A stretch of 64,000 nt of DNA from positions 94,798 through 158,797 of the forward strand of contig CBDCZQ010000001.1 in assembly GCA_965224575.1 (NCBI GenBank), given 5' to 3'. How positions within the stretch are numbered: the first letter of the stretch is position 1; each line of letters starts with the position of its first letter. Origin of the DNA: Methylococcales bacterium. GTDB taxonomy: Bacteria > Pseudomonadota > Gammaproteobacteria > Methylococcales > Methylomonadaceae. Below, piece by piece: positions 49,265 to 64,000 of the stretch. The notes beneath the pieces were generated by a model. The model was given only the letters and a program-made list of their open reading frames with translations, made no database searches and was not told the DNA's origin. The position numbers and the translations under genes are program-made.

Positions 49265-51673
49265 TTAGTTTGCCAATAAATTAATGCGTGCCATTAGTAC
49301 CGAAAGATCTGACCCGTCGGTGGTTTTTATACTAAAGTCAGCATTATTGTAACCATTTGAAAAAGTGCCGCTAACGGGGAAAGTTACGGTTCTGGTTTGT
49401 CCTCCTCCTTGAGTTGTGAGGACATTGCTGCTTCCATTAGTATGAACAAGCTGTAGCCCCATGATCCGATCATCTTTAAAGCTTATCTTGACATCAATTT
49501 TGCACCCGTTTGAACAGCGTTCCTGCATGAGCTGGTCATTAATATCGAATAACATTTCATTGGATTTTCGGGCGTAAAGCTCATAGTGCTGATTAATGTT
49601 TCTATCCGAAATTAGATTTCCAGCTCCCCAGTTCTCTTCGTCGACAGGCATGTCTTTTCGCATCGACTCATCTGCTATAGTAGGGCTTACCACCGAAAGC
49701 CAGCGACCAAACTCATTTATGGTGACATAGCCGCGATCATTGCCCTCAATTAAACACTGTTCTGAGGTATTACCACTTTTATACTCTGGGGGAAATAGCC
49801 CGAACGACGGATTCAGCGTTTTGTCACCTAAAATAACAAAAGCATCGGGTGTATCAGAACGGGTTCGTCCCAGTGTTTTTGAAAGGTAGGTGATGAAATC
49901 ACCTGAATGGAACTTAGTCTTTAGTCTCTCTGGGTGAGCAGAGTCAGGCGTGTATTGATGTTCAAATTGGTTATTGATGCTTTTCAGGTAATCAAGGCCT
50001 TCTGACCTTATCGATATATAGTTTCTACGTAACTGTAGTGCCCGCATTGAACTCATGTAAAAACGATATGCCTGATTGCTTAGCGGGCCTCCATAATCTA
50101 AAACCCAGTCCTCTGGACCATAAAATTCATTTTCATCACCCCAGTATTTATTTTGAATGGAATCGGCAAAGTCTTCATCGAACGTCATAGAGCAACTTTT
50201 ATCGATATTGTTTCCCGTCACTAAATTAACGCCATAAGTGTTTCCGGTATACCTCATCCAGTCTTCAATTTCTCCCTCTCTGTTTCCTATACCCTTGGCT
50301 TTCGCATAATTAATAATGGAAGGCAGTCTTGCATCAAAAGCAGATGGGCCAAACACGCCAGAGTAGCTGATGAACGCTAGTTTATTCTTGTGAACACCAA
50401 ATGCATCCACATACATATTGATAATGTCCTTAACGGTATCCTCAAAATTATCGGGTGTTAAACCATTATTTATACTTGCAGTGTCTTCACCAAGAGTCGA
50501 ATTTACCCAGAATTCACCCCATCCATCACGACCTCCACCATAGACCAGATTACCGAAGTCATCACTTTCTGGGCATTCACTGTTATTGTTGCCCTGATAA
50601 TACTCGCCATCAGCTATACCAAGATGGACGCCGATAATTTTATTGTTTCCTGCATATTCATTTGCAAAGGCATTAATAAACCCTTTCAACTGCATAACAT
50701 ACTCAGGTTTCCAGAACTGTAGGCTTTTATTCTCCAAGTAAGGTATAGAAGCCCATTCTGGAGCATGACACTGAGAATTCACCTCTAACCTGACTAACAC
50801 TTTATTATTGGTGGCATCCAGTCTTTGTTGAAAATCGTCCCAATCAAAGTGACCTTGAACACCTTCGCTCAAGCGCCAGACAACCTCCATAAAGTTGGTG
50901 CTTACTTCGGGGTCATCATTCCAGTTTCCACCTGTCATGCCTCCTTTGCTGGATTGGGTTGTGTATAGAGGTAATGACCAATCCATACCTTCGCTCAGCA
51001 AAGATATGCTGGCACCCAAAGCAATAGAGTGATTATTTGATTCGGTTAAAGCAGCGATCCAAAACCCATCCCAGGGATTTAGTTGATTATTCGTGCCTTT
51101 TTCAACATAGCTATTTCCATCATAAGTCCATACTTTGTTATGGAGAAGATTATTCTCTTTGGCCTTGTCAATGTTGCAGTTACCGTCATTGCAGGGGAGA
51201 GCAGTGGTGGTCAATCGAAGATCACCGAGATTCAAAGGGGATGAAAAAGGGTTTCCTGCTAGGTTCCATTGGTTAGATCCATCTTTTGATGGGGCTAGTG
51301 GAATTGATTCACTAGAGGCTATGGTACTGCCTTGTGGCATTTTCAGGGTGATCGATTTTCCTTCCTCAATAAGTTGGATAATCCAGTAGCCACTCCCTTT
51401 TTCCAATGTATCCGATAATGATACAGGCTCACCGTATTCATTGGAGTGGGGGTTATAGGCATAAATAGTCCAGTTTTGACCATAGGTACCACCTACACCT
51501 ATATTATCACCGATAATCTTTTCTAGTGTATTGGCTGATTCTGGAGGGGTGGCGGGTAATGAGATCATCCTCCATTTGTTATAAGGTAGTTCGAGCGTGG
51601 GGATAGTAGTTGCCAAAGAGCTAGTTGAAGCAATGAATAGCAAGCATGTAATAAAATATTTAATCGAAGCCAT
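49265..51673 (-). CDS. Secreted protein of unknown function (802 aa)
   Basis: Signal peptide MASIKYFITCLLFIASTSSLATT. Long ORF. The central part (FWKPEYVMQLKGFINAFANEYAGNNKIIGVHLGIADGEYY) is vaguely TIM-barrel glycoside-hydrolase-like, but this is unconfirmed. Confidence 0.6.
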   Translation of the reverse strand: MASIKYFITCLLFIASTSSLATTIPTLELPYNKWRMISLPATPPESANTLEKIIGDNIGVGGTYGQNWTIYAYNPHSNEYGEPVSLSDTLEKGSGYWIIQLIEEGKSITLKMPQGSTIASSESIPLAPSKDGSNQWNLAGNPFSSPLNLGDLRLTTTALPCNDGNCNIDKAKENNLLHNKVWTYDGNSYVEKGTNNQLNPWDGFWIAALTESNNHSIALGASISLLSEGMDWSLPLYTTQSSKGGMTGGNWNDDPEVSTNFMEVVWRLSEGVQGHFDWDDFQQRLDATNNKVLVRLEVNSQCHAPEWASIPYLENKSLQFWKPEYVMQLKGFINAFANEYAGNNKIIGVHLGIADGEYYQGNNNSECPESDDFGNLVYGGGRDGWGEFWVNSTLGEDTASINNGLTPDNFEDTVKDIINMYVDAFGVHKNKLAFISYSGVFGPSAFDARLPSIINYAKAKGIGNREGEIEDWMRYTGNTYGVNLVTGNNIDKSCSMTFDEDFADSIQNKYWGDENEFYGPEDWVLDYGGPLSNQAYRFYMSSMRALQLRRNYISIRSEGLDYLKSINNQFEHQYTPDSAHPERLKTKFHSGDFITYLSKTLGRTRSDTPDAFVILGDKTLNPSFGLFPPEYKSGNTSEQCLIEGNDRGYVTINEFGRWLSVVSPTIADESMRKDMPVDEENWGAGNLISDRNINQHYELYARKSNEMLFDINDQLMQERCSNGCKIDVKISFKDDRIMGLQLVHTNGSSNVLTTQGGGQTRTVTFPVSGTFSNGYNNADFSIKTTDGSDLSVLMARINLLAN

Positions 51674-53155: not shown

Positions 53156-53485
53156 TAATCGTATAAACAGAGAATCTGTAGGTAGAATAATTTAGCAGAA
53201 ATTATTGAGGAAGAATTAAAGATAAAGCGGACAAATAATCAAATTAAGACTTGGAATATTATAATATTATTAAATGTTATTTTATATGTAAGTGATTGTA
53301 TTTAAAAATAAAACCCTGTCTGTGTCTTAGGGTAAAAATTAAGTATTAATAATATATTAAAAAGTTCAATGAAAATATTATGTTTTGCGTTAGAATGCCA
53401 TTATATGAGAATCAGAAAAAATAATTAGAAGCTAAAAATATCGTAAAGCAAGACAAAATAAACTTAGTAAAAGAGGGTATTGTGT

Positions 53486-55270
53486 ATGATGTTAAATAGA
53501 CTGAATAAAAAATTTGTAACAGTTGTAGTCAGCTTTTTGTTGCTGACTATGTTTCAATCAAATACATTCGCTGATGAGGATGCAGTCGAGAAGGATGAGG
53601 CTGCTGAAGGTCATTTGGGGTTGTTTGTAGGGAATCGATTTCCTTCTGCAAATGAATGTAAATCCTGTCATCCAAAACACTATAAAGAGTGGTCAGTTTC
53701 TCAGCATGCTTATGCTCAATTGAGTCCCGTCTATATGGCAATGCAGAAGACCATTAATGCTGTAACAAGCAGTACCAATGGTGATTTCTGTATTCGATGT
53801 CATACCCCTGTAGGTATGAATCTGGAAGAAACCCCTTTTATGGCTAATTTAGACCGACATCCTACTTCAAGAGAGGGCGTTACTTGCATAGTTTGTCATC
53901 GGATGAATTTGGAATATGGAAAAGTTTCAGGTCGAGTGGCTTTACTGGAAGGTGATTTACAAAAACCAGTTTTTGGACCTAAAGGAAATAAAAATTTACA
54001 ACAAGCACTTGATGATCATCCTTTTTCATTAAAAGAAGGTGAGTCTGGTCGAAAGGTTCATTTAAAAGCGGGTCATTTTCCACGTATTTCAGATTCTGGG
54101 TTCTGTGGTGTATGTCACGATGTTAACTTATTTAATGGTTTTCGTTTAGAAGAAGCCTTTGCAGAATACAAAAACTCACCCGCTGCAAAAGAAGGCATTA
54201 GTTGTCAAGACTGCCATATGGGTAAAATTCAAGGTAAGAAATCAGGTTATGAAGAAGGTCCTGCCGCTTATCTTGGTGATGATTCTTCCAAACCTACAGC
54301 GCCAAGAAAATTGACTAATCATTATTTCGCAGGCCCTGACCACAGTATTATTCACCCAGGTATTTTTCCACACAATGAGGAAGCTGTAGAAATTGCAACA
54401 CTAAAAGAGTGGTTATTGTTTGACTATAAAGCAGGCTGGGGTACAGATGAATTTGAAGATAGTGTCGAAGACGATGCTGAGTTTCCAGAAGTTTGGGACT
54501 CTGTCGATGCCCGGTATGAAGCTAGAGAAGTATTAGATCAGCAATTTGAATTGTTGGAATGGGCCAAGGAAAAACGTGTAGAGGTATTAAAAAATGGCTT
54601 TGCTCATGGTGATATTAAAGTAGTCGAGGCGACTGAAAAAGATGGTATTAAGATTGAAGTCGAAGTTAAAAATATTACCAATGGTCATAATGTTCCTACT
54701 GGCTTTGATGCTGAACGAGTGATTTGGTTACAAACAACAATCACCAACCAAGAAGGGAAAATAATTTTCAAATCTGGAGACCTTGATCCAAATGGGGATG
54801 TACGTGATGCTCATTCACTCTATGTACATAATGGTGAAATTCCATTAGATTCTCAGTTACTGAATTTACAGTCCAAATTTCTGACTCGTAATGTTCGTGG
54901 GGGGGAAAGAGAACAAGTTCTCCCCATCAATTTTTCATTAGATCCACTGCCTTTTGTCCGGCCATCAACACGTTCAACTATTTTGACTGGGCAACCCTTT
55001 GGAGCTAGAAAACATCGGATGACAATTCCGCCGTTAGCAACTCGAATTCATAATTACAAAGTAGATTCTGAATTATTGACGGGTGCTGGTGAATATACTC
55101 TAAAGATTGCAATGAAGGTTGGAATGGTTCCTATCAACTTAATTGATGCTATAAAAGGTGTTGGTTTTGATTATGGGATGTCGACCAGAGAAATCGCTGA
55201 TGGAATTCGTGATGGACACACAACTGTATGGGAAACTGAAACTAAAATCCAAGTTCAATCTGCCAAGTAA
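53486..55270 (+). CDS. Periplasmic pentaheme c-type cytochrome with a ~300-aa heme-free C-terminal domain
   Basis: Signal peptide ...SNTFADE. Five CxxCH motifs: CKSCH, CIRCH, CIVCH, CGVCH, CQDCH. The C-terminal part contains VKNITNGHNVPTGFDAERVIWLQTTITNQEGK. The ORF track starts at TTG 53480; ATG 53486 has the better RBS spacing. Confidence 0.85.
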   Translation: MMLNRLNKKFVTVVVSFLLLTMFQSNTFADEDAVEKDEAAEGHLGLFVGNRFPSANECKSCHPKHYKEWSVSQHAYAQLSPVYMAMQKTINAVTSSTNGDFCIRCHTPVGMNLEETPFMANLDRHPTSREGVTCIVCHRMNLEYGKVSGRVALLEGDLQKPVFGPKGNKNLQQALDDHPFSLKEGESGRKVHLKAGHFPRISDSGFCGVCHDVNLFNGFRLEEAFAEYKNSPAAKEGISCQDCHMGKIQGKKSGYEEGPAAYLGDDSSKPTAPRKLTNHYFAGPDHSIIHPGIFPHNEEAVEIATLKEWLLFDYKAGWGTDEFEDSVEDDAEFPEVWDSVDARYEAREVLDQQFELLEWAKEKRVEVLKNGFAHGDIKVVEATEKDGIKIEVEVKNITNGHNVPTGFDAERVIWLQTTITNQEGKIIFKSGDLDPNGDVRDAHSLYVHNGEIPLDSQLLNLQSKFLTRNVRGGEREQVLPINFSLDPLPFVRPSTRSTILTGQPFGARKHRMTIPPLATRIHNYKVDSELLTGAGEYTLKIAMKVGMVPINLIDAIKGVGFDYGMSTREIADGIRDGHTTVWETETKIQVQSAK

Positions 55271-55287: not shown

Positions 55288-56676
55288 ATGAATAAAAAAT
55301 TAAAGTTATTTAATATTACAAAACATAGTCTGTTTTTGAGCTTGTTACTTTCGTCTAGCGTGCTGTTTGCATCTGAAACGAGCAGACTTTCTGATATTGC
55401 CCCACCATTTCAAGGTGATGATGAACTACCTAAGAGAACACCTCCTATTATTGAAATTGGTGATGCTTTTTTAGGAACAGGAAATATTTCGCCTGGTTTT
55501 ACTTTGCCTACGGGTGCAGTATGGCAACCACGTTTTTGGGTTTATGGACAGTTAAACTCTGCAGTTCAAGCATGGGATACGGGTGACGGTACTTTTAATG
55601 CAGAATGGGCAAATCGACTTGATCTTTTTGGTAATTTACAATTAACAGGGACAGAGAGAGTCGTTATTGGTATACAGCCATTACAAAGCAAGGGTGGGCA
55701 ACATACTGGGTATGAATTTGGCCCTGAAGATCGAGGTTTTGAAGGCGCGAATATTAATATTCGGACATTGTTCTTTGAAGGAGACTTTTCTGAATTATTT
55801 CCAAAACTTGACGTGAAAGATTTTTCATCAAATGATTTAGGTTTTTCAGTTGGTCGGCAAAGTATTTTGTTTCAGGATGGATTTATCATTAACGATATTG
55901 TTGATTCCATAGGTATTACCCGAAATAATCTCCGTTTTTCCAGTCTTCCCTGGTTAAGCAATGGACGTATTAGCGCGGTTTATGCTTGGAATGGTATTCA
56001 TCGGGATGATAATTTAGAAGATGAAAACGCTGATTTATTTGCTATTTTTTCTCAATGGGATACTACATTTAGTACTATTGATATTGATGTCGCTTATGTT
56101 AATACAGATGACGAATCGGGTGGAGATCTTCTGAGTGGAGGTATTAGTGGAGTGCAAAGGTTTGGTGGTCTTTCAACCACACTTCGAGCCTTAGGTTCGT
56201 GGGCACCTGATGGCAGGTCTCGTCAATCGGATAATGGCGCATTGTTTTTTGCTGAGGCTGCCTGGACACCAGCTTATAGTGTAAATCTAGCTTACTTAAA
56301 TGCTTTTGCTTCCATCAATAACTTTCGTTCAGCGGCTCGTGATGTAAGAACTGGAGGGCCACTTGGACGAACTGGATTGTTGTTTGCTGCTCGGTCAGTG
56401 GGTGCATTTCCACCTGCTTTAAGCAATAGAGCTGATAAGGCTTATGGAATTGCTGCTGGCTACCAGATGTTCTTTGACAATAATAGGCGCCAGTTTATTA
56501 TGGAAATAGGTGGTCGTGCTGATGACAGCAATGATACCACGGGAGCTGGAATAGCCGCACGTTTACAACAAGCAATAGGAAAAAGGTATATTGCTCAGGT
56601 TGATGGTTTTGGTGTTATTAGAGATGATACTGATCTTGGCTATGGTGTACGGTTTGAAATGACAGTTAAATTCTAA
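55288..56676 (+). CDS. Predicted outer-membrane beta-barrel (porin-like) protein
   Basis: Signal peptide ...SVLFASE. Alternating-hydrophobic strands with aromatic girdles, Gly-rich turns, and a C-terminal ...GYGVRFEMTVKF with terminal Phe. It lies 17 nt after the pentaheme gene. Confidence 0.65.
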   Translation: MNKKLKLFNITKHSLFLSLLLSSSVLFASETSRLSDIAPPFQGDDELPKRTPPIIEIGDAFLGTGNISPGFTLPTGAVWQPRFWVYGQLNSAVQAWDTGDGTFNAEWANRLDLFGNLQLTGTERVVIGIQPLQSKGGQHTGYEFGPEDRGFEGANINIRTLFFEGDFSELFPKLDVKDFSSNDLGFSVGRQSILFQDGFIINDIVDSIGITRNNLRFSSLPWLSNGRISAVYAWNGIHRDDNLEDENADLFAIFSQWDTTFSTIDIDVAYVNTDDESGGDLLSGGISGVQRFGGLSTTLRALGSWAPDGRSRQSDNGALFFAEAAWTPAYSVNLAYLNAFASINNFRSAARDVRTGGPLGRTGLLFAARSVGAFPPALSNRADKAYGIAAGYQMFFDNNRRQFIMEIGGRADDSNDTTGAGIAARLQQAIGKRYIAQVDGFGVIRDDTDLGYGVRFEMTVKF

Positions 56677-56691
56677 TTAAAATAGGTTGAT

Positions 56692-57954
56692 TTGATGAAT
56701 ACTGAGGGTTTAATCCAAATTGCAGGATTATGTATTAGTGGTTTAGTTTTGCTACAAGTTATTTTCCTCAGTTTTTCATCTTTACGTGCAGGGGTTTATA
56801 AGCGACGTCAATGGCAAACTGAATTATCTGTTCTTGAAAAGCAAATTTCGTTACATGCACTTAACCTTGATTTAGCAAAAAATAAAAGTAAAGGTGCGTG
56901 GGAGGGTTACAGAAAATTTACAATTTCAAAAAAAGAACATGAAAAAAAAAGTGGTATCTGTTCTTTTTATTTGAAACCACATGATGGAATGTCGATTCCT
57001 TCTTTTGAACCAGGACAATATTTATTTTTCAAGTTAAATCTCTCTACTGAAAAAAAACCTATTCTTCGTTGTTATTCTTTATCTGATAGCCCTTTAAATA
57101 AGGATTGTTATCGTGTAAGTATAAAAAAAGCATTGCCTCCAGGAGATAATTCAAATCTACCTAGTGGCATTTCTTCTAGTTATTTTCATGATAACTTGCA
57201 AGAGGGCGATATTGTTGATGTTAGAGCGCCAAGTGGTAAGTTTTATATAGATCTATTAAGTCATAAACCTGTAGTTCTTATTGGTGGAGGCGTTGGTATT
57301 ACCCCTGTGCTTAGTATGCTGAATGCACTTTGTGATATAAATTCTCAGCGAGAAATTTGGTTCTTTTTTGGAATTAGAAATGGTGATGAACATATTATGG
57401 AGTCACATTTCAAAGCGATTGAAGACAAATTCGATAATATCCATATTAATATTTGCTACAGTAGACCAACCGAGCAGGATAAAAAAGAGAAAAAATATCA
57501 TCATGCCAGTCGGGTAAATATTGACTTGTTAAAACAATTGTTACCTAGTAACAATTATGAGTTTTATTTTTGTGGGCCACCTCAAATGATGGATAGTTTG
57601 GAAACAGACCTTAAAACTTGGGGTGTCCCCAAATCCTCTGTTAATTTTGAGCGTTTTGGCAGCCCGTCAAAAAAAATAGTAGAAACTCTGGATAAATCAA
57701 TCCCCATCAATTTTAGTCGTAGTCAAAAAACTTTAAATTGGGATGGGGCGCAATCCTTACTTGATCTTGCGGAAGATAATAATATTGTCATAGACTCCTC
57801 TTGTAAACGGGGAATGTGTGGTTTGTGTCAAACTTCAATTAAATCTGGCTCTGTATTCTACGATGAAATACCTGAATATTTACCTGAATTGGAAGAGGGG
57901 TTGTGCTTACCCTGTGTAGCAAAGACTAAGGACAAACTGGAATTAGATGCCTGA
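56692..57954 (+). CDS. Membrane-anchored ferredoxin-NAD(P) reductase-like flavoprotein with a C-terminal plant-type 2Fe-2S domain
   Basis: N-terminal TM LIQIAGLCISGLVLLQVIFLSF. FAD motif RCYSLSD. NAD(P) motif GGGVGITPVLSM. FCGPPQMM. 2Fe-2S ligands CKRGMCGLCQ...CLPC. Confidence 0.8.
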   Translation: MMNTEGLIQIAGLCISGLVLLQVIFLSFSSLRAGVYKRRQWQTELSVLEKQISLHALNLDLAKNKSKGAWEGYRKFTISKKEHEKKSGICSFYLKPHDGMSIPSFEPGQYLFFKLNLSTEKKPILRCYSLSDSPLNKDCYRVSIKKALPPGDNSNLPSGISSSYFHDNLQEGDIVDVRAPSGKFYIDLLSHKPVVLIGGGVGITPVLSMLNALCDINSQREIWFFFGIRNGDEHIMESHFKAIEDKFDNIHINICYSRPTEQDKKEKKYHHASRVNIDLLKQLLPSNNYEFYFCGPPQMMDSLETDLKTWGVPKSSVNFERFGSPSKKIVETLDKSIPINFSRSQKTLNWDGAQSLLDLAEDNNIVIDSSCKRGMCGLCQTSIKSGSVFYDEIPEYLPELEEGLCLPCVAKTKDKLELDA

Positions 57955-57991
57955 TTCCTTAAATGTTAACTTAAAGAGAGAAATCAAGATT

Positions 57992-59011
57992 ATGAATATA
58001 TTAATTAGAAGGATTCAAAGTTTTTTTCTATTTTCTATGATAGCACTAAGCTTATTAAATCCCGCATTCTCAAAAGAGGTTTCTCCGGAAACGATGGCAA
58101 CTTTAGGACCTAAAGCTTGTGCAAATTGTCATAAATCTTCAATCCGAGCATGGAAACCAACCCATCACTTTAAAACTTTTAAAGCCTTAACAAGAAATAA
58201 AGAAGCAAAGGTCATTGCTAAAAAAATGGGTATTAAGCGAATGAAAAGCGGAAGTGATTGTTTGACTTGTCATTTCACCTCTAAACCGAAAAAAGGTAAA
58301 ACAAAAGTAGTAGCGGGTATCTCCTGTGAATCTTGTCATGGTCCAGCAAAAGGCTGGATGGATATTCATAGTGATTTTGGTGGAAAAGGAGTTAAAGCAG
58401 CGGATGAAACACCAGAGCATAAAGTTACACGCTTTGCTGAGTCAGTTAAAAACGGCATGATTAGACCTTCTAATTTATATGATGTAGGTAAAAACTGTTA
58501 TAGCTGCCATACAGTCCCTAATGAAAAACTAGTTAATACAGGTGGTCATACCGCAGGTAGTGATTTCGAATTGGTAAAATGGAGTCAAGGAGAAGTGCGT
58601 CATAATGTCTGGTATGACGATAAAGTGAATAACTCTCCAGCTGTAGAGCGCTTACGTATGATGTATATTATTGGTAAAGCATTGGATCTAGAATATGCAT
58701 TACGAGGACTTGCAAAAGCGACTGAAGAACAAACTTACTATACATCAATGGTTAAACGTCAACAAACTGCTTCAGCAGATTTACAGCAAGTCGCTGATAA
58801 ATTAAAAGTTGCTGAAATAACAGCCATCATAACTGCGGCTTCTAGTGCCGAGGTTAAAGTTAATAATTTAGATGCTCTAAATGGTGCAGCAGATAAAGTC
58901 GGTGCTGCTGCTCAGGCAGCCGCTAAGAAATTTGATGGTGCTCAGTTTGCAGCTATTGATGGTTTGTTACCTGCGGCAGCTGATTATAAGGGTGCAGTAT
59001 TTCAACCATAA
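57992..59011 (+). CDS. Periplasmic tetraheme c-type cytochrome with an Ala-rich C-terminal tail
   Basis: Signal peptide MNILIRRIQSFFLFSMIALSLLNPAFS. Four CxxCH motifs: CANCH, CLTCH, CESCH, CYSCH. The tail reads ...AAASSAEVKVNNLDALNGAADKVGAAAQAAAKKFDGAQFAAIDGLLPAAADYK. The ORF track starts at 57947, overlapping the previous gene. Confidence 0.85.
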   Translation: MNILIRRIQSFFLFSMIALSLLNPAFSKEVSPETMATLGPKACANCHKSSIRAWKPTHHFKTFKALTRNKEAKVIAKKMGIKRMKSGSDCLTCHFTSKPKKGKTKVVAGISCESCHGPAKGWMDIHSDFGGKGVKAADETPEHKVTRFAESVKNGMIRPSNLYDVGKNCYSCHTVPNEKLVNTGGHTAGSDFELVKWSQGEVRHNVWYDDKVNNSPAVERLRMMYIIGKALDLEYALRGLAKATEEQTYYTSMVKRQQTASADLQQVADKLKVAEITAIITAASSAEVKVNNLDALNGAADKVGAAAQAAAKKFDGAQFAAIDGLLPAAADYKGAVFQP

Positions 59012-59032
59012 ATTAAGATATTGTTTTTTGTA

Positions 59033-59118
59033 GGTTGGGCTAACAGCTCTATCGTTAACCCAACGACTTTATGTTATGTAAAGTTAGGTGTAAAAAAGAA
59101 ACAGCCCAACCTACAACA
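59033..59118. repeat. Partial BIME-like repeat
   Basis: GTAGGTTGGGCTAACAGCTCTATCGTTAACCCAAC (module 2, inverted) ... AACAGCCCAACCTACAAC. Confidence 0.7.
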
Positions 59119-59211
59119 ATCTCTTAGCATAATGCTAATCAGACTTTAGAGCTTTTGCTTGAGTCTACCTTACAGAAGCTTTGGTATTGAAAGAAAAATT
59201 TGTTTCACCTT

Positions 59212-59406
59212 AGGAGTGAGGATTTAATAATATCCGTATCTTGACGCAGGGTTTTAGTTCGTTTCAAGGCCTAGAAACGAGCGCATAGCAGGCTACGCAA
59301 CCGTTTCTACAACGCAGAAGACGAGCAAAAAGATTAGAAAATATTTAGCGATTCTTAATGCTTTAGTACAAATTAAGATACGGATATTATTAAATCCTCA
59401 CTCCTT
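59212..59406. repeat. MITE-like 195-bp element, relative of 42044-42203
   Basis: AGGAGTGAGGATTTAATAATATCCGTATC at 59212-59240 pairs with GATACGGATATTATTAAATCCTCACTCCT at 59378-59406. The internal ...GCGCATAGCAGGCTACGCAAC...AACGCAGAAGACG... is shared with the 42-kb copy. Confidence 0.8.
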
Positions 59407-59426
59407 AGGATTAAGTCAAGTAAATT

Positions 59427-61115
59427 ATGATTGATAAAGAAAAATGGTGGGACCCGAGAATGACAGAACAGGATATTAAGAATATCCTGTTCTGTGAAAT
59501 TTTCAATAAAATTGACCAAGATAAATTTCCATCAAGTCGTTCATTAGAAAGTATTATTTGTGAGCATACTCGTCTGGTTGATTTTAAAGCAGGGGAGGTG
59601 ATTGTTCGTGCTGGTGATTATGGTAATTCAGCTTTTTTAATTATTGATGGAAATGTTGACATTATTTTGCCAACTAATAGTTCGGATAAAATCTTTGGTC
59701 ATCCTGTTTCACAGCCGACTAATTGGTTTAAAGAAATAGCAAAATTGTGGAAAAACAGCGTTTACCCTGAGGTTAGAAATTACCAAAACAATGCATCAAA
59801 TACTTTAGATATTCAGGTTGACCATGATAGACACAGAGTCTTTATTAAGAATTATTCTAAAATAATAGAGCAGTTAAAAAAAAGTGTTATTAAAAGAACA
59901 TCAGGAGATATTACTGGTGAAATCGCAGCATTAAGCCGTTCCCCCAGAACGGCACATATCATAGCGTCTACAGACAGTCAGTTATTAGAAATTCGTTGGC
60001 AAGGTTTACATACATTGCGTAAGTTTAATGATGAATTTCGACAAAAAGTGGATATGCTTTATAGAAAGAACAGCCTGGATGCCTTACGTATATTACCTTT
60101 GTTTTCAAATTTAGAAAAACATGAACAAGATCAGGTTATTGAGCATTCGCTGTTTGAATCTTATGGTGAGTTTTCTTGGCAGGATGACTATAAAAAAGAT
60201 GTTGAGCAGGAATCTTCTGATTTATTAAAGAATGAAACTTTAATTGTTGCAGAAGGTGATTATGCCGATGGTTTATTATTTATACGTTCAGGTATTGCTC
60301 GTGTTAGTAATAAATACAATCATGGACATAGGGTTTTAAAGTATCTTAATAAAGGAGATGTTTTTGGCTTGGATGTGATGATACATAATTGGAAAAATAA
60401 GGACAGTATTCCATTGGCGACAAGTCTATATGCAGTTGGGTATACTGATGTTTTACGTGTTCCTTATCATATAATTGAACAATTTGTTTTACCTAAAATG
60501 TCATCCTCAGAAATAGATAAAAGCTTGTTGGAGCTTGAAACTATTTCTAGTGAAAATAAAGACTATGCAAAGGATCTGCGTATTTCAGATGGCATGTTAG
60601 ATTTTATGAGTGATTATCGCTACATAAATGGTTCAGCTAGTATGTTAATAGATCTGGATCGATGTATTCGGTGTGATGATTGCGTTAATGCTTGTGCTGT
60701 AGGGCATAATAATAATCCTCGTTTTAACAGGCATGGCCGGCGATATGATCATTTTATGGTAGCTAATGCTTGTATGCATTGCCATGATCCTGTTTGTATG
60801 ATTGGTTGTCCAACAGGTGCAATTCATCGAGAACCCAGTGGACAAATTGCCATTAATGATGATACCTGTATTGGTTGTAGTACCTGCGCCAATTCTTGTC
60901 CATATGACAATATCAGGATGATAAGTGCAAGGGATGAAATGGGAGAACTTATGACAGATGAAATGAGCCAGAAACCTGTCATAAAAGCAACGAAATGTGA
61001 TTTATGCGTCGATCAGATTGGTGGCCCTGCCTGTGTAAGAGCGTGTCCGCATGATGCATTAACTCGTATAGATTTTCTTGCTTTATCTACTTTAATTGAT
61101 AAGTGGGATCAATAA
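59427..61115 (+). CDS. Cytoplasmic fusion of two cyclic-nucleotide-binding (CAP-effector) domains and an NrfC/DmsB-type four-cluster FeS module
   Basis: cNMP domain 1: FKAGEVIVRAGDYGNSAFLIIDGNV...GDITGEIAALSRSPRTAHIIA. Domain 2: LIVAEGDYADGLLFIRSGIARV...GDVFGLD. Four Cys clusters: CIRCDDCVNAC, CMHCHDPVCMIGCP, CIGCSTCANSCP, CDLCVDQIGGPACVRACP. No Tat or Sec leader. Confidence 0.8.
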   Translation: MIDKEKWWDPRMTEQDIKNILFCEIFNKIDQDKFPSSRSLESIICEHTRLVDFKAGEVIVRAGDYGNSAFLIIDGNVDIILPTNSSDKIFGHPVSQPTNWFKEIAKLWKNSVYPEVRNYQNNASNTLDIQVDHDRHRVFIKNYSKIIEQLKKSVIKRTSGDITGEIAALSRSPRTAHIIASTDSQLLEIRWQGLHTLRKFNDEFRQKVDMLYRKNSLDALRILPLFSNLEKHEQDQVIEHSLFESYGEFSWQDDYKKDVEQESSDLLKNETLIVAEGDYADGLLFIRSGIARVSNKYNHGHRVLKYLNKGDVFGLDVMIHNWKNKDSIPLATSLYAVGYTDVLRVPYHIIEQFVLPKMSSSEIDKSLLELETISSENKDYAKDLRISDGMLDFMSDYRYINGSASMLIDLDRCIRCDDCVNACAVGHNNNPRFNRHGRRYDHFMVANACMHCHDPVCMIGCPTGAIHREPSGQIAINDDTCIGCSTCANSCPYDNIRMISARDEMGELMTDEMSQKPVIKATKCDLCVDQIGGPACVRACPHDALTRIDFLALSTLIDKWDQ

Positions 61116-61933
61116 TGAATTATTCTGGGCGTCGCATTCAAAATAGTTTGTTAAGCATTGCACTAACTGCTGTTTTACTTATTTTTTTAAAAATATATGG
61201 GATTCCTTTATATCGAATGCAAGTCTGGTCAGGCTGGATTCTTTTTACCTTAATTTTATTGCTGCTAATTTATAATATTAGGAAGAAACTTTCGATGTTA
61301 CCTTTAGGAAGGGCTGCATTTTGGTTGCAGTGTCATGCTTATTTGGGCTTAGTAACATGTGTTATGTTTATCCAGCATATTAACTTTCGGTTTCCCAGTG
61401 GAAATTTTGAAATTCTATTTTCTAGCGTTTTTATTTTTACTGCTTTTACTGGAATATTTGGCTTGATACTGTCTAGAGTTGTCCCTAAATATTTATCAAG
61501 CAGAGGGGAAGAGGTAATTTTTGAGCGTATTCCAATATTTACTGTTAAGCTTAAAGATCAATCTCAAGCACTCATTAAAGAGTGTGTGAGTGCAACAAAA
61601 TCAAAAGTATTATTTGATTATTATCAGCAACATTTATTTGAATATTTTTGTGAACCAAAAAATATTTTTTTTCATTTAATAGGGTCTAATTCAGCATGGA
61701 ATAAAATGCTTATTAAACACCGTACTTTTGATCGGTTTTTAAGTGATGAAGAGAATGAATATGCTGATAAATTACTCATTTTAATGCGACAAAAGAACGA
61801 CCTTGATTACCATTATGCTCTTCAAGGTCTATTAAAAGCCTGGACTTTTTTGCATTTTCCCCTGAGTTTTGCACTGTTGGTTTTATCCCTACTCCATGTG
61901 GCATTGGTTTATGCTTTTGTCGGAGGTATTTAA
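61115..61933 (+). CDS. Polytopic inner-membrane protein (about 5 TM, conserved-looking His in TM segments), unknown family
   Basis: TM segments include AAFWLQCHAYLGLVTCVMFIQHI and FLHFPLSFALLVLSLLHVALVY. The ATG at 61115 overlaps the upstream TAA (TAATG), and its own TAA overlaps the next ATG (TAATG at 61931-61935). The ORF track starts at GTG 61103. Confidence 0.65.
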   Translation: MNYSGRRIQNSLLSIALTAVLLIFLKIYGIPLYRMQVWSGWILFTLILLLLIYNIRKKLSMLPLGRAAFWLQCHAYLGLVTCVMFIQHINFRFPSGNFEILFSSVFIFTAFTGIFGLILSRVVPKYLSSRGEEVIFERIPIFTVKLKDQSQALIKECVSATKSKVLFDYYQQHLFEYFCEPKNIFFHLIGSNSAWNKMLIKHRTFDRFLSDEENEYADKLLILMRQKNDLDYHYALQGLLKAWTFLHFPLSFALLVLSLLHVALVYAFVGGI

Positions 61934-64000
61934 TGCGTAGCAAAGCCCAACCTCTTCAAAATTTTGATTTTCAAGAGAGTCCTTATGAAAGACCTAATCA
62001 AAAGTGGGTCTGTGGAAAAAAGGCTCAGGGGTGTCCCTGTGAAATAGGGCCTGATAAAAAAGGGAAATGCCGAGCAGATTTTGAATGTAAACCTAAAGCT
62101 AGCATAAATGGCGATCAGTGGAATTGTACACGTTCTAGTTCTTTTGGTGGTAATTGTACTCATGGTCCGTTACCTGATGGTACATGTTGCCAGCCCATTA
62201 CCCCTTGTTATCCAGTCCGAAGTATTAGATATAAGCGGTCTTTGGTAATAAAGTGGGTAACGATAGCGACTTTAGGAATTCTTCTGCTTCTCATAAATGG
62301 AAGTAGTAAACATCATTTTATCAGCCCAGGCGAATTAACCTATCAGCATGCGAATAATACTGAATGCTCTGATTGCCATCAAGTTTTTGATAAAGGGTTT
62401 ACTGGATGGGTACATCAGGCACTCAATTCCGTCAATATTATTGATAACAATGAGCAATGTATTAATTGTCATGAACTAGGTGAACATGCTGATGAAGCGC
62501 ATGGATTGTCTGAAGCAGGACTTAAAAAAATATCTTATACCTTGGATGCAGGGAAAGAAAGTCCGGATAGGCAACAAATTGCCTGTATGACATGCCATGT
62601 TGAGCACCATGGTACAAATAATAATTTGTTGGCAGTTAATAGCCAGAATTGTGCTTTATGTCATGATCTTCCTTTTAAGAATGGTAAAAAATCTCATCCT
62701 GAATTCCGTCAATATCCTTATCGACATAGAACAGGGATTATTTTTGATCATACTCAACATTACGATAAACATTTTTTTGATAAAAGTGGTGAAACTCGGA
62801 AAGAGAATGCACCGAGTTCATGTTTAACTTGTCATGCAAGTGATAAGAATGGGATAAAAATGGTTGTTAGGGATTATCAGAAAACATGTTCTGAATGCCA
62901 CAATAGTCTATTTGAAGAATCAGAGGCATTTCCTGTCATTACTGTTCCTGCTTTAGATACTGAAAATATTGTTTCACTAGGAGCCTGGCCTGCTGATGCA
63001 GATGCTGGATTAACACCTTTTATGAAATTACTTCTTTCCAATGGCGATAAAATCAAAGCCGTTTTGGCAGAACTTGATGGAGGCGATCTTACAGAATTGG
63101 AAGAAGAAGATGCACAAGTTGTTGCTTGGAGCATTAAAGAATTATTTTACGATATATATAAACAGGGAGATGTTGCTGTTACACAACGATTAGCAAATGC
63201 ATTTAATTGCCAAATAAATTCAAAGGGTAAATTGATTCAAGAACCCGCTTGTCAATTAACAGTGAATAAATTAGATGCTTTAGTTTCAGCTTTCCCATAT
63301 CCACTCTTTTGCTCTGCCCAAAAGGAATGGTTTCCAAAACTGGCTAATGAAATTAAGCTTTATCTTGATTTTAAAGGGAAAAGAAAAAATATTTTGTCTA
63401 ATTCCTCACTCACTTTTTGCGAAACGATAAATAAGACTGCGGATAGTGATTCAGATTCAGAGGCTTGGATGCTAGATTATTTTACTCTGAGTTACCGCCC
63501 TGTAACTCATGCTGATAAATTTTTTAGCACATGGTTAAATGCCAGTCAAAATCATCAGGGTGAATCATTAGATGACAAAACACGAAAAGAAATATTTGAT
63601 TTGTTAAACTCTGAAGATTCAGCAGGGCAGTGTATTTATTGTCATAGTGTTGATAGTATTGATACAGATAATAATTATATACATTGGTCAACTCCTCAGT
63701 GGAACCCAAAGCGTAAAGACTTTATTCGTTTTAATCATGCGGGTCATTTACGACACCAAGAAGAAAGTGTATGTAAAGATTGTCATAAAGAAAACAAAGA
63801 AGCTGATTACTTAGCCAGCTATAAAAACAGTACTCCTTTAGATTTTCAGAGTAATTTCTCAACTGGAAAAGAACAATGCGAGACTTGTCATAATCAAGCG
63901 ATGACAGAAAAACAATGTCAAACATGTCATAATTATCATGTTAGTGATGATAATGATTTTTCCAATCAGGATTTTATGGGAAGAGGAAACTTAAAAGTTT
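61933..64000 (+). CDS. Membrane-anchored multiheme c-type cytochrome (at least 10 hemes) with a Cys-rich N-terminal cytoplasmic segment; 3' end outside the window
   Basis: This ORF is not in the supplied track because it has no stop in the window. It runs for 689 codons without a stop from ATG 61933. The pre-TM region has 11 Cys (CGKKAQGCPCEIGPDKKGKCRADFECKP...NCTRSSSFGGNCTHGPLPDGTCCQPITPCYP). The TM segment is WVTIATLGILLLLI. It then carries CSDCH, CINCH, CMTCH, CALCH, CLTCH, CSECH, CIYCH, CKDCH, CETCH and CQTCH. Confidence 0.85.
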   Translation, partial: MRSKAQPLQNFDFQESPYERPNQKWVCGKKAQGCPCEIGPDKKGKCRADFECKPKASINGDQWNCTRSSSFGGNCTHGPLPDGTCCQPITPCYPVRSIRYKRSLVIKWVTIATLGILLLLINGSSKHHFISPGELTYQHANNTECSDCHQVFDKGFTGWVHQALNSVNIIDNNEQCINCHELGEHADEAHGLSEAGLKKISYTLDAGKESPDRQQIACMTCHVEHHGTNNNLLAVNSQNCALCHDLPFKNGKKSHPEFRQYPYRHRTGIIFDHTQHYDKHFFDKSGETRKENAPSSCLTCHASDKNGIKMVVRDYQKTCSECHNSLFEESEAFPVITVPALDTENIVSLGAWPADADAGLTPFMKLLLSNGDKIKAVLAELDGGDLTELEEEDAQVVAWSIKELFYDIYKQGDVAVTQRLANAFNCQINSKGKLIQEPACQLTVNKLDALVSAFPYPLFCSAQKEWFPKLANEIKLYLDFKGKRKNILSNSSLTFCETINKTADSDSDSEAWMLDYFTLSYRPVTHADKFFSTWLNASQNHQGESLDDKTRKEIFDLLNSEDSAGQCIYCHSVDSIDTDNNYIHWSTPQWNPKRKDFIRFNHAGHLRHQEESVCKDCHKENKEADYLASYKNSTPLDFQSNFSTGKEQCETCHNQAMTEKQCQTCHNYHVSDDNDFSNQDFMGRGNLKV

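What the first reader, a model, noticed from the sequence alone, without database searches (positions are those of the whole stretch)
59427..61115. Four-cluster ferredoxin module fused to two cyclic-nucleotide-binding domains, with no export signal
NrfC/DmsB/HybA-type four-cluster proteins are normally Tat-exported electron-transfer subunits. This module (CIRCDDCVNAC, CMHCHDPVCMIGCP, CIGCSTCANSCP, CDLC...CVRACP) instead follows about 400 aa containing two CAP-type effector domains. The first has an intact phosphate-binding cassette (GEIAALSRSPRTAHIIA). The second is degenerate.

There is no twin-arginine or Sec leader, so the protein is predicted to be cytoplasmic. That suggests electron flow into the membrane complex could be gated by cAMP, cGMP or a related ligand. 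This would be control of a respiratory-type module at the protein level rather than through transcription.
Basis: partly seen in the sequence, partly recalled or inferred. Interest (0 to 1): 0.65.

Follow-up and report, generated by a model that had tools for sequence, protein, structure and literature searches.

The report
Cyclic-nucleotide-sensing iron-sulfur subunit PtdE
The gene is real and encodes the cytoplasmic iron-sulfur "entry wire" (PtdE) of a widespread, already named but never tested seven-gene electron conduit that runs from the cytoplasm to the outer membrane, and its conserved cyclic-nucleotide pocket makes it a good candidate for a second-messenger switch on electron flow.

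Summary
ORF 59427-61115 encodes 562 aa: two PKA-R-like cyclic-nucleotide-binding (CNB) domains followed by a four-[4Fe-4S] ferredoxin module. It has no leader, and an in-frame stop lies two codons upstream of the ATG.

It is not an artefact. Contigs from independent runs span it without differences, and about 1,000 representative homologs (E<=1e-30) exist, found here in Proteobacteria, Verrucomicrobia, Planctomycetes and several other phyla.

It is not new as an object. The window carries the full cluster ptdABCDEFG (Elbon et al. 2024 preprint), which is "PCC4 subgroup II" of He et al. 2017. This gene is ptdE. Both papers are genomics only and leave the function unknown.

New here:
- PtdE has four clusters (16 invariant Cys), not two.
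- The phosphate-binding cassette of CNB-A is essentially invariant in 81 genomes. CNB-B is degenerate.
- PtdE-PtdF-PtdG form an invariant triad.
- Natural PtdE-PtdF fusions exist.
- FHA domains recur on PtdE and PtdC.

Best reading: NAD(P)H -> PtdC -> PtdE -> dihaem-b PtdF -> multihaem cytochromes -> porin, with entry gated by a cyclic nucleotide. The gating is plausible but untested.

The parts
53480..55270 (+). ptdA: pentahaem c-type cytochrome (596 aa, signal peptide-like N-terminus; CxxCH at aa 60, 104, 136, 209, 242)
   Evidence: Conserved near ptdE in 20 of 33 fully flanked loci.
55288..56676 (+). ptdB: porin-like outer-membrane protein (462 aa, no Pfam hit, ends in Phe)
   Evidence: Homologs follow ptdA in other genomes. 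Called a porin in PMC5566968 and in 10.1101/2023.11.21.568154.
56692..57954 (+). ptdC: membrane-anchored FAD/NAD(P)-binding reductase with a C-terminal 2Fe-2S ferredoxin domain (420 aa)
   Evidence: Pfam FAD_binding_6, NAD_binding_1 and Fer2. The reductase module resembles that of Hmp (NF009805, E 8.6e-75, below cut-off). Present in 32 of 33 fully flanked loci.
57947..59011 (+). ptdD: periplasmic tetrahaem cytochrome, c554-like (354 aa; CxxCH at aa 58, 105, 127, 184)
   Evidence: Present in 32 of 33 fully flanked loci.
59021..59410 (.). Multi-copy small repeat elements inserted in the ptdD-ptdE spacer (17-nt inverted repeat 59025-59041/59103-59119; 35-nt inverted repeat 59208-59242/59375-59409)
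   Evidence: Word depth at 59021-59141 is about 37-112x the single-copy flank in four runs, and contigs break here. No Rfam family matches.
59427..61115 (+). ptdE: the finding; 562-aa cytoplasmic protein with tandem CNB domains plus a four-[4Fe-4S] module
59514..60041 (+). CNB-A (aa ~30-205). It is split by a family-specific ~75-aa insert (aa 81-155, nt 59667-59891) that carries invariant W108 and E115.
   Evidence: the insert has low pLDDT
59904..59966 (+). Phosphate-binding cassette of CNB-A (aa 160-180, GDITGEIAALSRSPRTAHIIA)
   Evidence: Conservation in 81 genomes: G164 81/81, E165 81/81, R171 81/81, R174 79/81. Aligned to PKA-R and PKG PBCs.
60090..60491 (+). CNB-B (aa ~222-355), degenerate cassette. 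The window has V317 and Y335 where the family consensus has E and R.
60639..61076 (+). Four-cluster ferredoxin module (aa 405-550) with 16 Cys in four motifs
   Evidence: 15 of the 16 Cys are present in 81/81 genomes and C452 in 80/81. Aligns over HycB3 residues 7-162.
61103..61933 (+). ptdF: 5-TM inner-membrane protein (276 aa) with two W-x3-H-x13-H motifs (H78/H92 on TM3, H251/H265 on TM5), predicted to bind two b haems. Overlaps ptdE by 13 nt.
   Evidence: Sits directly downstream of ptdE in 72 of 73 loci. Found fused to PtdE in P0185 and P0204.
61933..64000 (+). ptdG (partial, >=689 aa; its ATG overlaps the ptdF stop as TAATG). It has a conserved cytoplasmic Cys-rich N-terminus (aa ~15-95, nt 61975-62217), one TM helix, then >=10 CxxCH haem sites. 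It runs off the window.
   Evidence: Lies downstream of ptdF in 67 of 67 loci.

Best explanation
The gene is ptdE, the cytoplasmic iron-sulfur subunit of the Ptd (PCC4 subgroup II) trans-envelope electron conduit.

Its C-terminal module holds four [4Fe-4S] clusters that form a wire. The wire docks on the cytoplasmic face of PtdF, a 5-TM protein predicted to carry two b haems stacked across the membrane. PtdF in turn feeds the membrane-anchored decahaem PtdG, the tetrahaem PtdD and the porin-pentahaem pair PtdB/PtdA.

Electrons most likely enter from NAD(P)H through the membrane-anchored flavoprotein PtdC (FAD, then 2Fe-2S) and flow outward, bypassing the quinone pool. In effect this is a split NOX/ferric-reductase-type system extended by cytochrome wires to the cell surface.

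The N-terminal PKA-R-like tandem CNB module is a regulatory head. Site A binds a cyclic nucleotide and allosterically permits or blocks electron transfer, or the docking of PtdC or PtdF. Site B is a degenerate relay domain.

Shown here: the architecture, cytoplasmic location, synteny, conservation, and the existence of PtdE-PtdF fusions.

Inferred: haem and cluster loading, the direction of flow, the donor, and gating by nucleotide.
For: Architecture:
- Domain calls.
- The Fe-S module aligns end to end with HycB3/HycB4.
- 15 of the 16 Cys are present in 81/81 genomes and C452 in 80/81.
- The tandem CNB region matches PKA-R and PKG structures by Foldseek at E 3e-16 to 1e-15, probability 1.0.

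Cytoplasmic location: no leader and an upstream in-frame stop.

Complex with PtdF:
- ptdF lies directly downstream in 72 of 73 loci and ptdG in 67 of 67, across Proteobacteria, Verrucomicrobia, Planctomycetes and other phyla.
- The genes overlap.
- Natural in-frame PtdE-PtdF fusions exist in two lineages, each seen on two contigs. Their C-terminal parts align to the window's PtdF at 35% identity, E 1e-50 and 5e-48.

PtdF as a dihaem b protein:
- W74, H78, H92, W247, H251 and H265 are invariant in 46 sequences.
- The model has pLDDT 93 with 5 TM helices.
- Weak Pfam hits of family members converge on DUF4405, Ni_hydr_CYTB and Ferric_reduct.
- He et al. 2017 made the same inference.

Donor: ptdC (FAD/NAD/2Fe-2S) is present in 32 of 33 fully flanked loci.

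Regulation:
- PBC-A is essentially invariant: G164 and E165 81/81, R174 79/81.
- FHA domains are fused to PtdE and/or PtdC in several lineages, and one such locus (L004) lies next to a Ser/Thr kinase.

Direction (inference from established bioenergetics): moving electrons from the cytoplasmic to the periplasmic side is assisted by the membrane potential. Starting from NAD(P)H (-320 mV) it is downhill to any likely acceptor. The reverse, from Fe(II) to NAD(P)+, is uphill twice over.
Against: - No experiment exists on any member. Both papers state that the function is unknown.
- The PtdF model has no significant structural match in the PDB (best E 0.73), and Pfam Ferric_reduct is not hit by the window protein. 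The dihaem assignment therefore rests on motifs.
- He et al. proposed the opposite direction (Fe(II) oxidation feeding quinones). Their PCC4 subgroup I lacks the Fe-S gene, so the conduit can exist without PtdE.
- No cyclase gene was found among the larger window ORFs scanned.
- CNB folds can bind other ligands or none. Trypanosome PKA-R binds nucleosides (structures listed).
- The PtdE model is only moderately confident (pLDDT 73).
Confidence: 0.6

Rival explanations
1. PtdE is a constitutive Fe-S wire. Its CNB domains no longer bind nucleotide and serve only as a scaffold or docking surface for PtdC, PtdF or the PtdG N-terminus.
For: - CNB-B is degenerate in this protein.
- CNB-A is interrupted by a 75-aa family-specific insert carrying invariant residues that could form an interface.
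- No cyclase was found among the larger window ORFs scanned.
Against: The ligand-contacting Gly-Glu...Arg of PBC-A is kept in 79-81 of 81 genomes, in proteins that share only 42-57% identity with the window protein apart from one 73% relative. That is hard to explain without a bound phosphate-ribose ligand.
Confidence: 0.22
2. The conduit runs inward, as He et al. 2017 proposed for PCC4. Extracellular Fe(II) or Mn(II) is oxidised, PtdF passes electrons to quinone, and PtdE/PtdC are a side branch to cytoplasmic acceptors.
For: - The cluster was first found in Zetaproteobacteria and Hyphomicrobium from Fe/Mn-oxidising settings.
- Mariprofundus and other Zetaproteobacteria MAGs carry it.
- A multicopper oxidase gene lies in the window at 4267-5874.
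Against: - Most carriers are not known iron oxidisers: methanotroph-related Methylococcales, Verrucomicrobia, Planctomycetes, marine heterotrophic Alphaproteobacteria, SAR324 and Nitrospinota.
- Inward flow to a cytoplasmic Fe-S/NAD(P)+ system works against both the redox potential and the membrane potential (inference).
- The NAD(P)H-flavoprotein gene is nearly always present.
Confidence: 0.13
3. PtdE is a CRP/FNR-type redox- and nucleotide-sensing regulator, not an electron-transfer subunit.
For: The CRP family combines a CNB fold with Fe-S in FNR. IMG names the protein 'CRP-like cAMP-binding protein'.
Against: - No helix-turn-helix domain is detected.
- The Fe-S part is a complete four-cluster ferredoxin fold.
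- There is strict synteny with, and natural fusion to, the membrane protein PtdF.
Confidence: 0.03
4. The fusion is an assembly or annotation artefact, or the true protein is Tat-exported from an upstream start.
For: None found.
Against: - Independent contigs span the gene with 0 differences.
- There are 971 representative homologs at E<=1e-30.
- An in-frame stop lies two codons upstream.
Confidence: 0.01

Closest known systems
PtdE of the ptdABCDEFG cluster (Elbon et al., bioRxiv 10.1101/2023.11.21.568154), which is the Fe-S protein of 'PCC4 subgroup II' (He et al. 2017, PMC5566968)
   Same: Same seven genes, in the order A-G in this window. Same domain content. The IMP has the same W-x3-H-x13-H motifs. 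The window protein is 42-57% identical (one Methylomarinum MAG 73%) to homologs that sit in that synteny.
   Different: The papers describe two 4Fe-4S clusters, whereas I find four. He et al. do not mention the CNB domains. Neither paper proposes nucleotide gating, reports PtdE-PtdF fusions or FHA variants, or describes the cytoplasmic Cys-rich domain of PtdG. The window copy comes from a deep-sea Methylococcales-like genome.
Cytoplasmic four-cluster ferredoxins HycB/HydN/AegA-N, and NarH on the dihaem-b NarI
   Same: Four CxxCxxCxxxC(P)-type motifs with no export signal. The best sequence matches are 7qv7 HycB3 (E 1e-18), HydN (E 1e-18) and AegA (E 1.5e-21). Like NarH-NarI, it is a cytoplasmic Fe-S wire sitting on a dihaem-b membrane anchor (the NarH-NarI comparison rests on established knowledge).
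   Different: All NCBIfam scores are far below the equivalog cut-offs. There is no catalytic partner such as a hydrogenase, formate dehydrogenase or molybdoenzyme. It carries a 400-aa CNB head that none of these proteins has.
PKA regulatory subunit / PKG tandem CNB-A/B module
   Same: Two consecutive CNB domains. Foldseek gives E 3e-16 to 1e-15 over ~365 columns. The PBC-A sequence is canonical.
   Different: No kinase partner. CNB-A has a 75-aa insert. CNB-B lacks the canonical Glu and Arg. The output is an Fe-S domain.
NOX / ferric-reductase (FRD) transmembrane electron transfer
   Same: The logic is NAD(P)H, then flavin, then two b haems bound by paired H-x13-H motifs on two parallel helices, then the outside. 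PtdC has the FNR-type module.
   Different: The system is split into separate subunits, with a 2Fe-2S cluster and four 4Fe-4S clusters inserted between flavin and haem. PtdF has 5 TM helices and is not a detectable Pfam or Foldseek member of the FRD family. The acceptor is a chain of multihaem cytochromes.
Porin-cytochrome conduits (MtrCAB, PioAB/MtoAB) and Hmc/Tmc-type transmembrane complexes
   Same: A porin plus periplasmic multihaem cytochromes, linked to an inner-membrane redox module.
   Different: Mtr-type systems draw on quinol through CymA. Here a cytoplasmic NAD(P)H/Fe-S entry with a second-messenger domain is encoded in the cluster.
CNB-regulated bacterial enzymes such as the cAMP-dependent protein acetyltransferase Mt-PatA (from memory, not tested here)
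   Same: A CNB domain fused to a non-DNA-binding effector as an allosteric switch.
   Different: There the effector is an acetyltransferase. Here it would be an electron wire.

Membership tests
PtdE / PCC4-subgroup-II Fe-S protein | CNB domain(s) plus a Fer4_11-type Fe-S domain in one polypeptide | tested here: met
   Pfam cNMP_binding E 8.7e-24 and Fer4_11 E 4.5e-9
PtdE / PCC4-subgroup-II Fe-S protein | Lies immediately upstream of the 5-TM IMP that has two W-x3-H-x13-H motifs | tested here: met
   ptdF at 61103-61933 overlaps ptdE. H78/H92 and H251/H265 are invariant. The same arrangement is found in 72 of 73 loci.
PtdE / PCC4-subgroup-II Fe-S protein | The cluster also encodes penta-, tetra- and deca-haem cytochromes, a porin and a FAD/NAD(P) oxidoreductase | tested here: met
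   Haem-motif counts are 5, 4 and >=10. Pfam supports the domain calls. The order A-G is as published.
PtdE / PCC4-subgroup-II Fe-S protein | Sequence homology to cluster members in other phyla | tested here: met
   42-73% identity over the full length to 80 genome loci that show the synteny
Four-cluster ferredoxin superfamily (NrfC/DmsB/HybA/HydN/HycB) | 16 Cys in four cluster-binding motifs | tested here: met
   15 of the 16 Cys are present in 81/81 genomes and C452 in 80/81. Aligns to HycB3 residues 7-162.
Four-cluster ferredoxin superfamily, exported subclass (NrfC/HybA/DsrO) | Twin-arginine signal peptide | tested here: not met
   No RR plus hydrophobic region at the N-terminus. An in-frame stop lies two codons upstream of the start.
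Named equivalogs HydN, DmsB, NrfC, HybA, AegA | Score above the NCBIfam curated cut-off | tested here: not met
   Scores are 42-76 bits against cut-offs of 214-1003
CNB (CAP/PKA-R) domain | Beta-barrel fold and a Pfam score above the gathering threshold | tested here: met
   83.8 bits against 27.5. Foldseek to PKA-R and PKG at E ~1e-16.
CNB (CAP/PKA-R) domain | Canonical PBC: G-E-x-A-L ... R-[TA]-A | tested here: met
   Met for CNB-A. Not met for CNB-B in this protein, which has V317 and Y335.
CNB (CAP/PKA-R) domain | Actual binding of cAMP or cGMP | not testable with these tools
   Needs ITC, DRaCALA or a co-crystal
CRP/FNR transcription factors | C-terminal helix-turn-helix DNA-binding domain | tested here: not met
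   No HTH family among the Pfam hits. The C-terminus is the Fe-S module.
Ferric-reductase domain (FRD/NOX) family, for the partner PtdF | Two bis-His motifs (H-x13-H) on two transmembrane helices | tested here: met
   Invariant in 46 sequences
Ferric-reductase domain (FRD/NOX) family, for the partner PtdF | Detectable sequence or fold homology to PF01794 or to NOX/STEAP structures | tested here: not met
   The window protein gives no hit. Only 3 of 46 relatives hit weakly, while DUF4405 is hit by 21 of 46. The best Foldseek E against the PDB is 0.73.

The most novel reading that the evidence does not exclude
Ptd would be a quinone-independent NAD(P)H-to-cell-surface electron export line. In effect it is a bacterial 'split NOX' prolonged by multihaem wires and a porin. 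Its cytoplasmic entry subunit would be switched on or off by a cyclic nucleotide, and in some lineages also by phospho-threonine signalling through FHA domains. This would be the first case of a second messenger gating a respiratory-type electron wire directly at the protein level. It would be present in about a thousand protein clusters across marine and soil phyla.
Probability: 0.3. Interest if true: 0.8.

Novelty: new member of a known kind. Interest (0 to 1): 0.5.

Why it matters
The Ptd/PCC4 cluster is widespread. There are 971 representative PtdE clusters at E<=1e-30, and carriers include methanotroph relatives, Verrucomicrobia, Planctomycetes, SAR324, Nitrospinota and Zetaproteobacteria. 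Parts of it (ptdAB) are reported as highly transcribed in an oxygen-deficient zone. Yet it has no known function.

If the reading is right, electrons really leave from NAD(P)H through a nucleotide-gated Fe-S subunit. That would add a new route of extracellular electron transfer, metal reduction or electron dumping that does not pass through quinones. It would also add a new mode of control of electron transport by second messengers.

The natural PtdE-PtdF fusions and the invariant PBC give concrete handles for experiments, and several cultured carriers are available.

Tried and rejected
- Tat or Sec leader, or an upstream start: rejected.
- Assembly artefact: rejected.
- Structural match of PtdF to NOX, cytochrome b or any PDB fold: none found. 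FRD membership is therefore left as motif-level only.
- Pfam and NCBIfam for PtdF and PtdB: no hits.
- A cyclase gene near the cluster: none among the larger window ORFs scanned. The CHASE2 protein next to the cluster in L001 showed no cyclase domain in the part held.
- A regulatory RNA in the 415-bp ptdD-ptdE spacer: only chance Rfam matches. The spacer is filled by multi-copy repeats instead.
- cAMP versus cGMP preference from the residue after the PBC Arg: Thr in 62 of 81 but variable, so no call is made.
- RNA runs to test co-transcription: the only runs holding the gene are of unknown library type and are kept as contigs, so this was not informative.
- Literature searches for an experimental study of a CNB-4Fe-4S protein found none.
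- P0217 looked like a third PtdE-PtdF fusion, but its tail degenerates into low-complexity sequence, probably from a frameshift, so it was not counted.
Full report
**1. The observation**

The ORF listing returns the ORF exactly as described: 59427..61115, + strand, 562 aa, ATG start.

Pfam finds cNMP_binding at E 8.7e-24 (83.8 bits against a gathering score of 27.5, three stretches, the best at aa 268-353). It also finds a set of 4Fe-4S families (Fer4_11, Fer4_7, Fer4_9 and others) over aa ~405-550.

The frame is closed two codons upstream of the ATG by a TAA, and four further stops lie in the preceding 40 codons. No longer N-terminus, and hence no hidden Tat leader, is possible. The N-terminus aligns with those of homologs (consensus I-x-R-P-x-R-W-D-x-P-F) and is followed by charged residues rather than a hydrophobic signal core.

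Logan contigs from separate public runs span most or all of the gene with zero differences. This includes the CNB/Fe-S junction and the boundaries to the next two genes. The contigs are 10.4 kb, 8.5 kb and 3.0 kb and cover 59378-62500 (the 3.0-kb one covers 59640-62500). The fusion is real.

**2. What the protein is made of**

*The Fe-S module.* It aligns end to end with cytoplasmic four-cluster proteins:
- HycB3 and HycB4 of the hydrogen-dependent CO2 reductase (7qv7, E 1e-18 and 1.5e-16)
- HydN (E 1e-18) and the AegA N-terminus (E 1.5e-21)
- less closely, DmsB, DsrO, HybA, ArrB and NrfC

All NCBIfam scores are far below the equivalog cut-offs. The module therefore belongs to the superfamily but is an ortholog of none of these.

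I aligned 81 genome copies to a family profile. Fifteen of the 16 cysteines are present in 81/81 and one in 80/81. The protein thus has four clusters, not the "two 4Fe-4S clusters" stated for PtdE in the preprint.

*The N-terminal 400 aa.* An AlphaFold2 model (pLDDT 73, better in the CNB parts) matches tandem CNB-A/B structures of PKA regulatory subunits and PKG. Foldseek gives E 3e-16 to 1e-15 over ~365 columns, probability 1.0.

*CNB-A.* phmmer alignments place GDITGEIAALSRSPRTAHIIA on the phosphate-binding cassettes of PKA-R and PKG. CNB-A is interrupted by a ~75-aa insert specific to this family. The insert has low model confidence but carries invariant W108 and E115.

Across 81 genomes the ligand-contacting residues of cassette A are almost absolute:

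| Residue | Conservation |
|---|---|
| G164 | 81/81 |
| E165 | 81/81 |
| R171 | 81/81 |
| R174 | 79/81 |

The residue after the Arg is Thr in 62/81 and otherwise variable. No cAMP-versus-cGMP call is justified.

*CNB-B.* The family consensus is a shifted, non-canonical FG[LF]xE...SLRA (E317 71/81, R335 66/81). The window protein has Val and Tyr at these two positions.

No helix-turn-helix domain is present.

**3. Surroundings**

ptdE overlaps by 13 nt a 276-aa membrane protein at 61103-61933. The stop of that gene overlaps the ATG of a third gene (TAATG at 61931-61935) that runs off the window.

*The membrane protein (PtdF).*
- It has no Pfam or NCBIfam hit.
- An alignment of 46 homologs shows invariant W74, H78 and H92 on TM3, G117 and G120 on TM4, and W247, H251 and H265 on TM5. 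That makes two W-x3-H-x13-H motifs.
- The model is confident (pLDDT 93). It has five transmembrane helices and a helical ~115-aa insert between TM4 and TM5.
- The insert carries the nearly invariant motif RGEEVIFERIP.
- Foldseek finds no PDB match (best E 0.73).
- Weak Pfam hits of family members converge on dihaem-b families: DUF4405 21/46, Ni_hydr_CYTB 11/46, Ferric_reduct 3/46.

*The third gene (PtdG).* It has a cytoplasmic Cys-rich N-terminus, one TM helix and at least ten CxxCH sites.

*Upstream genes*:
- a pentahaem cytochrome at 53480
- a porin-like protein at 55288
- a membrane-anchored FAD/NAD(P)/2Fe-2S reductase at 56692
- a c554-like tetrahaem cytochrome at 57947

**4. Relatives**

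The word-indexed search returned 4,926 hits. The best 120 all have the same architecture at 44-98% identity. A profile search of 1.84 billion representatives gave 971 proteins at E<=1e-30, and all 150 best listed scored E<=1.3e-97.

A scan of one genome per species returned 80 loci:
- Methylococcales (closest, 73%)
- many Alphaproteobacteria, including the cultured Hwanghaeella grinnelliae, Ferruginivarius sediminum and Kordiimonadales IMCC3096
- Verrucomicrobia
- Planctomycetes, including Candidatus Uabimicrobium amorphum
- SAR324, Nitrospinota, Holophagae, Zetaproteobacteria, Acidiferrobacter, Oceanococcus and a Flavobacteriales MAG

Searching the six-frame ORFs of these loci with the seven window proteins gave the following:

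| Gene | Position relative to ptdE | Loci |
|---|---|---|
| ptdF | directly downstream | 72 of 73 with room |
| ptdG | after ptdF | 67 of 67 |
| reductase (ptdC) | within 10 kb | 32 of 33 fully flanked |
| tetrahaem (ptdD) | within 10 kb | 32 of 33 fully flanked |
| pentahaem (ptdA) | within 10 kb | 20 of 33 fully flanked |
| porin (ptdB) | within 10 kb | 19 of 33 fully flanked |

The gene order is shuffled between clades.

**5. It is already named**

He et al. 2017 (PMC5566968) described "PCC4". It comprises a porin, periplasmic cytochromes with 4, 5 and 10 haems, and a conserved 5-TM inner-membrane protein with two W-x3-H-x13-H motifs that they compared to the ferric-reductase domain. In subgroup II there is also an Fe-S (pfam13247) gene upstream of that membrane protein. 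They proposed an Fe(II)-oxidation conduit to the quinone pool. The word "cyclic" does not occur in their text.

Elbon et al. (bioRxiv 10.1101/2023.11.21.568154) named the same cluster ptdABCDEFG. [quoted passage not shown] They stated that the function "remains completely unknown".

The window carries the cluster in exactly the order A-G. Further searches found no experimental work and no proposal of nucleotide gating.

**6. New evidence bearing on mechanism**

(a) *Natural fusions.* P0185 (843 aa) and P0204 (856 aa) carry a full PtdE followed in frame by a full PtdF. The PtdF parts are 35% identical to the window's PtdF over 266 and 244 aa (E 1e-50 and 5e-48), with both His motifs intact. Each fusion is seen on two different contigs.

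This is Rosetta-stone evidence that the Fe-S end of PtdE sits at the cytoplasmic N-terminus of PtdF. It fixes the topology as N-in, which agrees with the distribution of Lys and Arg in the loops (read directly from the sequence). H78/H251 would then bind the cytoplasmic-side haem and H92/H265 the periplasmic-side haem.

(b) *FHA domains.* They are fused to PtdE (L004/L020, L063, L070, and twice in P0183). They are independently fused to the reductase PtdC (L004, L035, L038, L063). In L004 the cluster lies next to a Ser/Thr kinase. Regulatory domains therefore pile up specifically on the two cytoplasmic entry subunits.

(c) *Bioenergetics* (inference from established principles). Electron movement from the cytoplasmic to the periplasmic side is assisted by, and dissipates, the membrane potential. 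Starting from NAD(P)H it is strongly downhill. Such a line conserves no energy and drains reductant, so tight post-translational control makes sense. The reverse flow, from Fe(II) to NAD(P)+, is uphill in both redox and electrical terms.

**7. Best explanation and rivals**

I conclude with high confidence (about 0.85) that the gene encodes the cytoplasmic four-cluster subunit of the Ptd/PCC4 complex, bound to PtdF.

I conclude with moderate confidence (about 0.45-0.5) that CNB-A binds a cyclic nucleotide and controls electron entry.

An outward, NAD(P)H-fed, quinone-independent direction is my preferred inference but is not shown.

Rivals:
- a constitutive wire with CNB domains as scaffold
- the inward Fe/Mn-oxidation model
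- a CRP/FNR-like regulator (no HTH, fused to a membrane protein)
- an artefact or exported protein (refuted)

**8. Comparison and novelty**

The window adds a Methylococcales-type member, probably from a deep-sea organism. Runs holding it are labelled invertebrate, hydrothermal vent, cold seep and sediment metagenomes, and the window's GC content is about 37%.

The gating idea is new relative to the two papers and is now better motivated, but it is untested.

I rate the finding as a new member of a known, experimentally uncharacterised kind, with interest 0.5.

Noticed in passing
window 59021-59410 (ptdD-ptdE spacer): The 415-bp spacer is filled by small multi-copy repeats. Assembler word depth at 59021-59141 is about 37-112x the single-copy flanks in four independent runs, and contigs break at ~59058/59065 and 59378. 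A 35-nt inverted repeat (59208-59242/59375-59409) and a 17-nt one (59025-59041/59103-59119) look like MITE or REP-type elements. Homologous clusters have much shorter spacers at this point, about 50 bp in L003. The insertion may uncouple ptdABCD from ptdEFG transcription.
   Followed up: partly
window 61975-62217 (PtdG aa ~15-95): The decahaem PtdG has a conserved cytoplasmic Cys-rich domain before its TM anchor. Its consensus is YERPNQxWvCG..G.pC..GPd..G.C....eC.P...gdrW.C.R....GG.C..GPlPdG.Cc...p.C.P, with 8-9 conserved Cys. It was found in 73 loci, has no Pfam family, and is not mentioned in either paper. It may be a metal or Fe-S site, or a docking module for PtdE or PtdF.
   Followed up: partly
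P0185/P0329 (843 aa) and P0204/P0331 (856 aa), metagenomic proteins: These are natural in-frame PtdE-PtdF fusions in two lineages. P0217 (852 aa) looks like a third, but its tail is low-complexity, probably from a frameshift.
   Followed up: yes
L004/L020, L035, L038, L063, L070; P0183, P0199, P0267: FHA domains (one or two) are fused to PtdE and/or PtdC in Planctomycetota, Ca. Uabimicrobium and some Alphaproteobacteria. L004 has a Ser/Thr kinase next to the cluster. P0214, P0230 and P0237 have ~290-350-aa N-terminal extensions with no Pfam hit.
   Followed up: partly
L003 18237-21719 (- strand): One contig carries a second, divergently placed ptdE-ptdF-ptdG triad about 6 kb from the complete cluster. 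The triad can therefore be duplicated as a unit.
   Followed up: no
window 59463-59495: A perfect 15-nt inverted repeat (ACAGAACAGGATATT / AATATCCTGTTCTGT, 3-nt loop) lies inside the first 25 codons of ptdE. It may be a translational or operator element, or chance.
   Followed up: no
window 4267-5874 and 12588-15794: The window also holds a multicopper oxidase gene (Cu-oxidase_3/_2) and a 1068-aa NHL-repeat beta-propeller protein with a Peptidase_C13 domain. They lie about 40-50 kb from the ptd cluster, and no link was tested.
   Followed up: no
window 49265-51673 (-) and 45828-47678 (+): Two large ORFs (802 aa and 616 aa) just upstream of the cluster have no Pfam hit.
   Followed up: no
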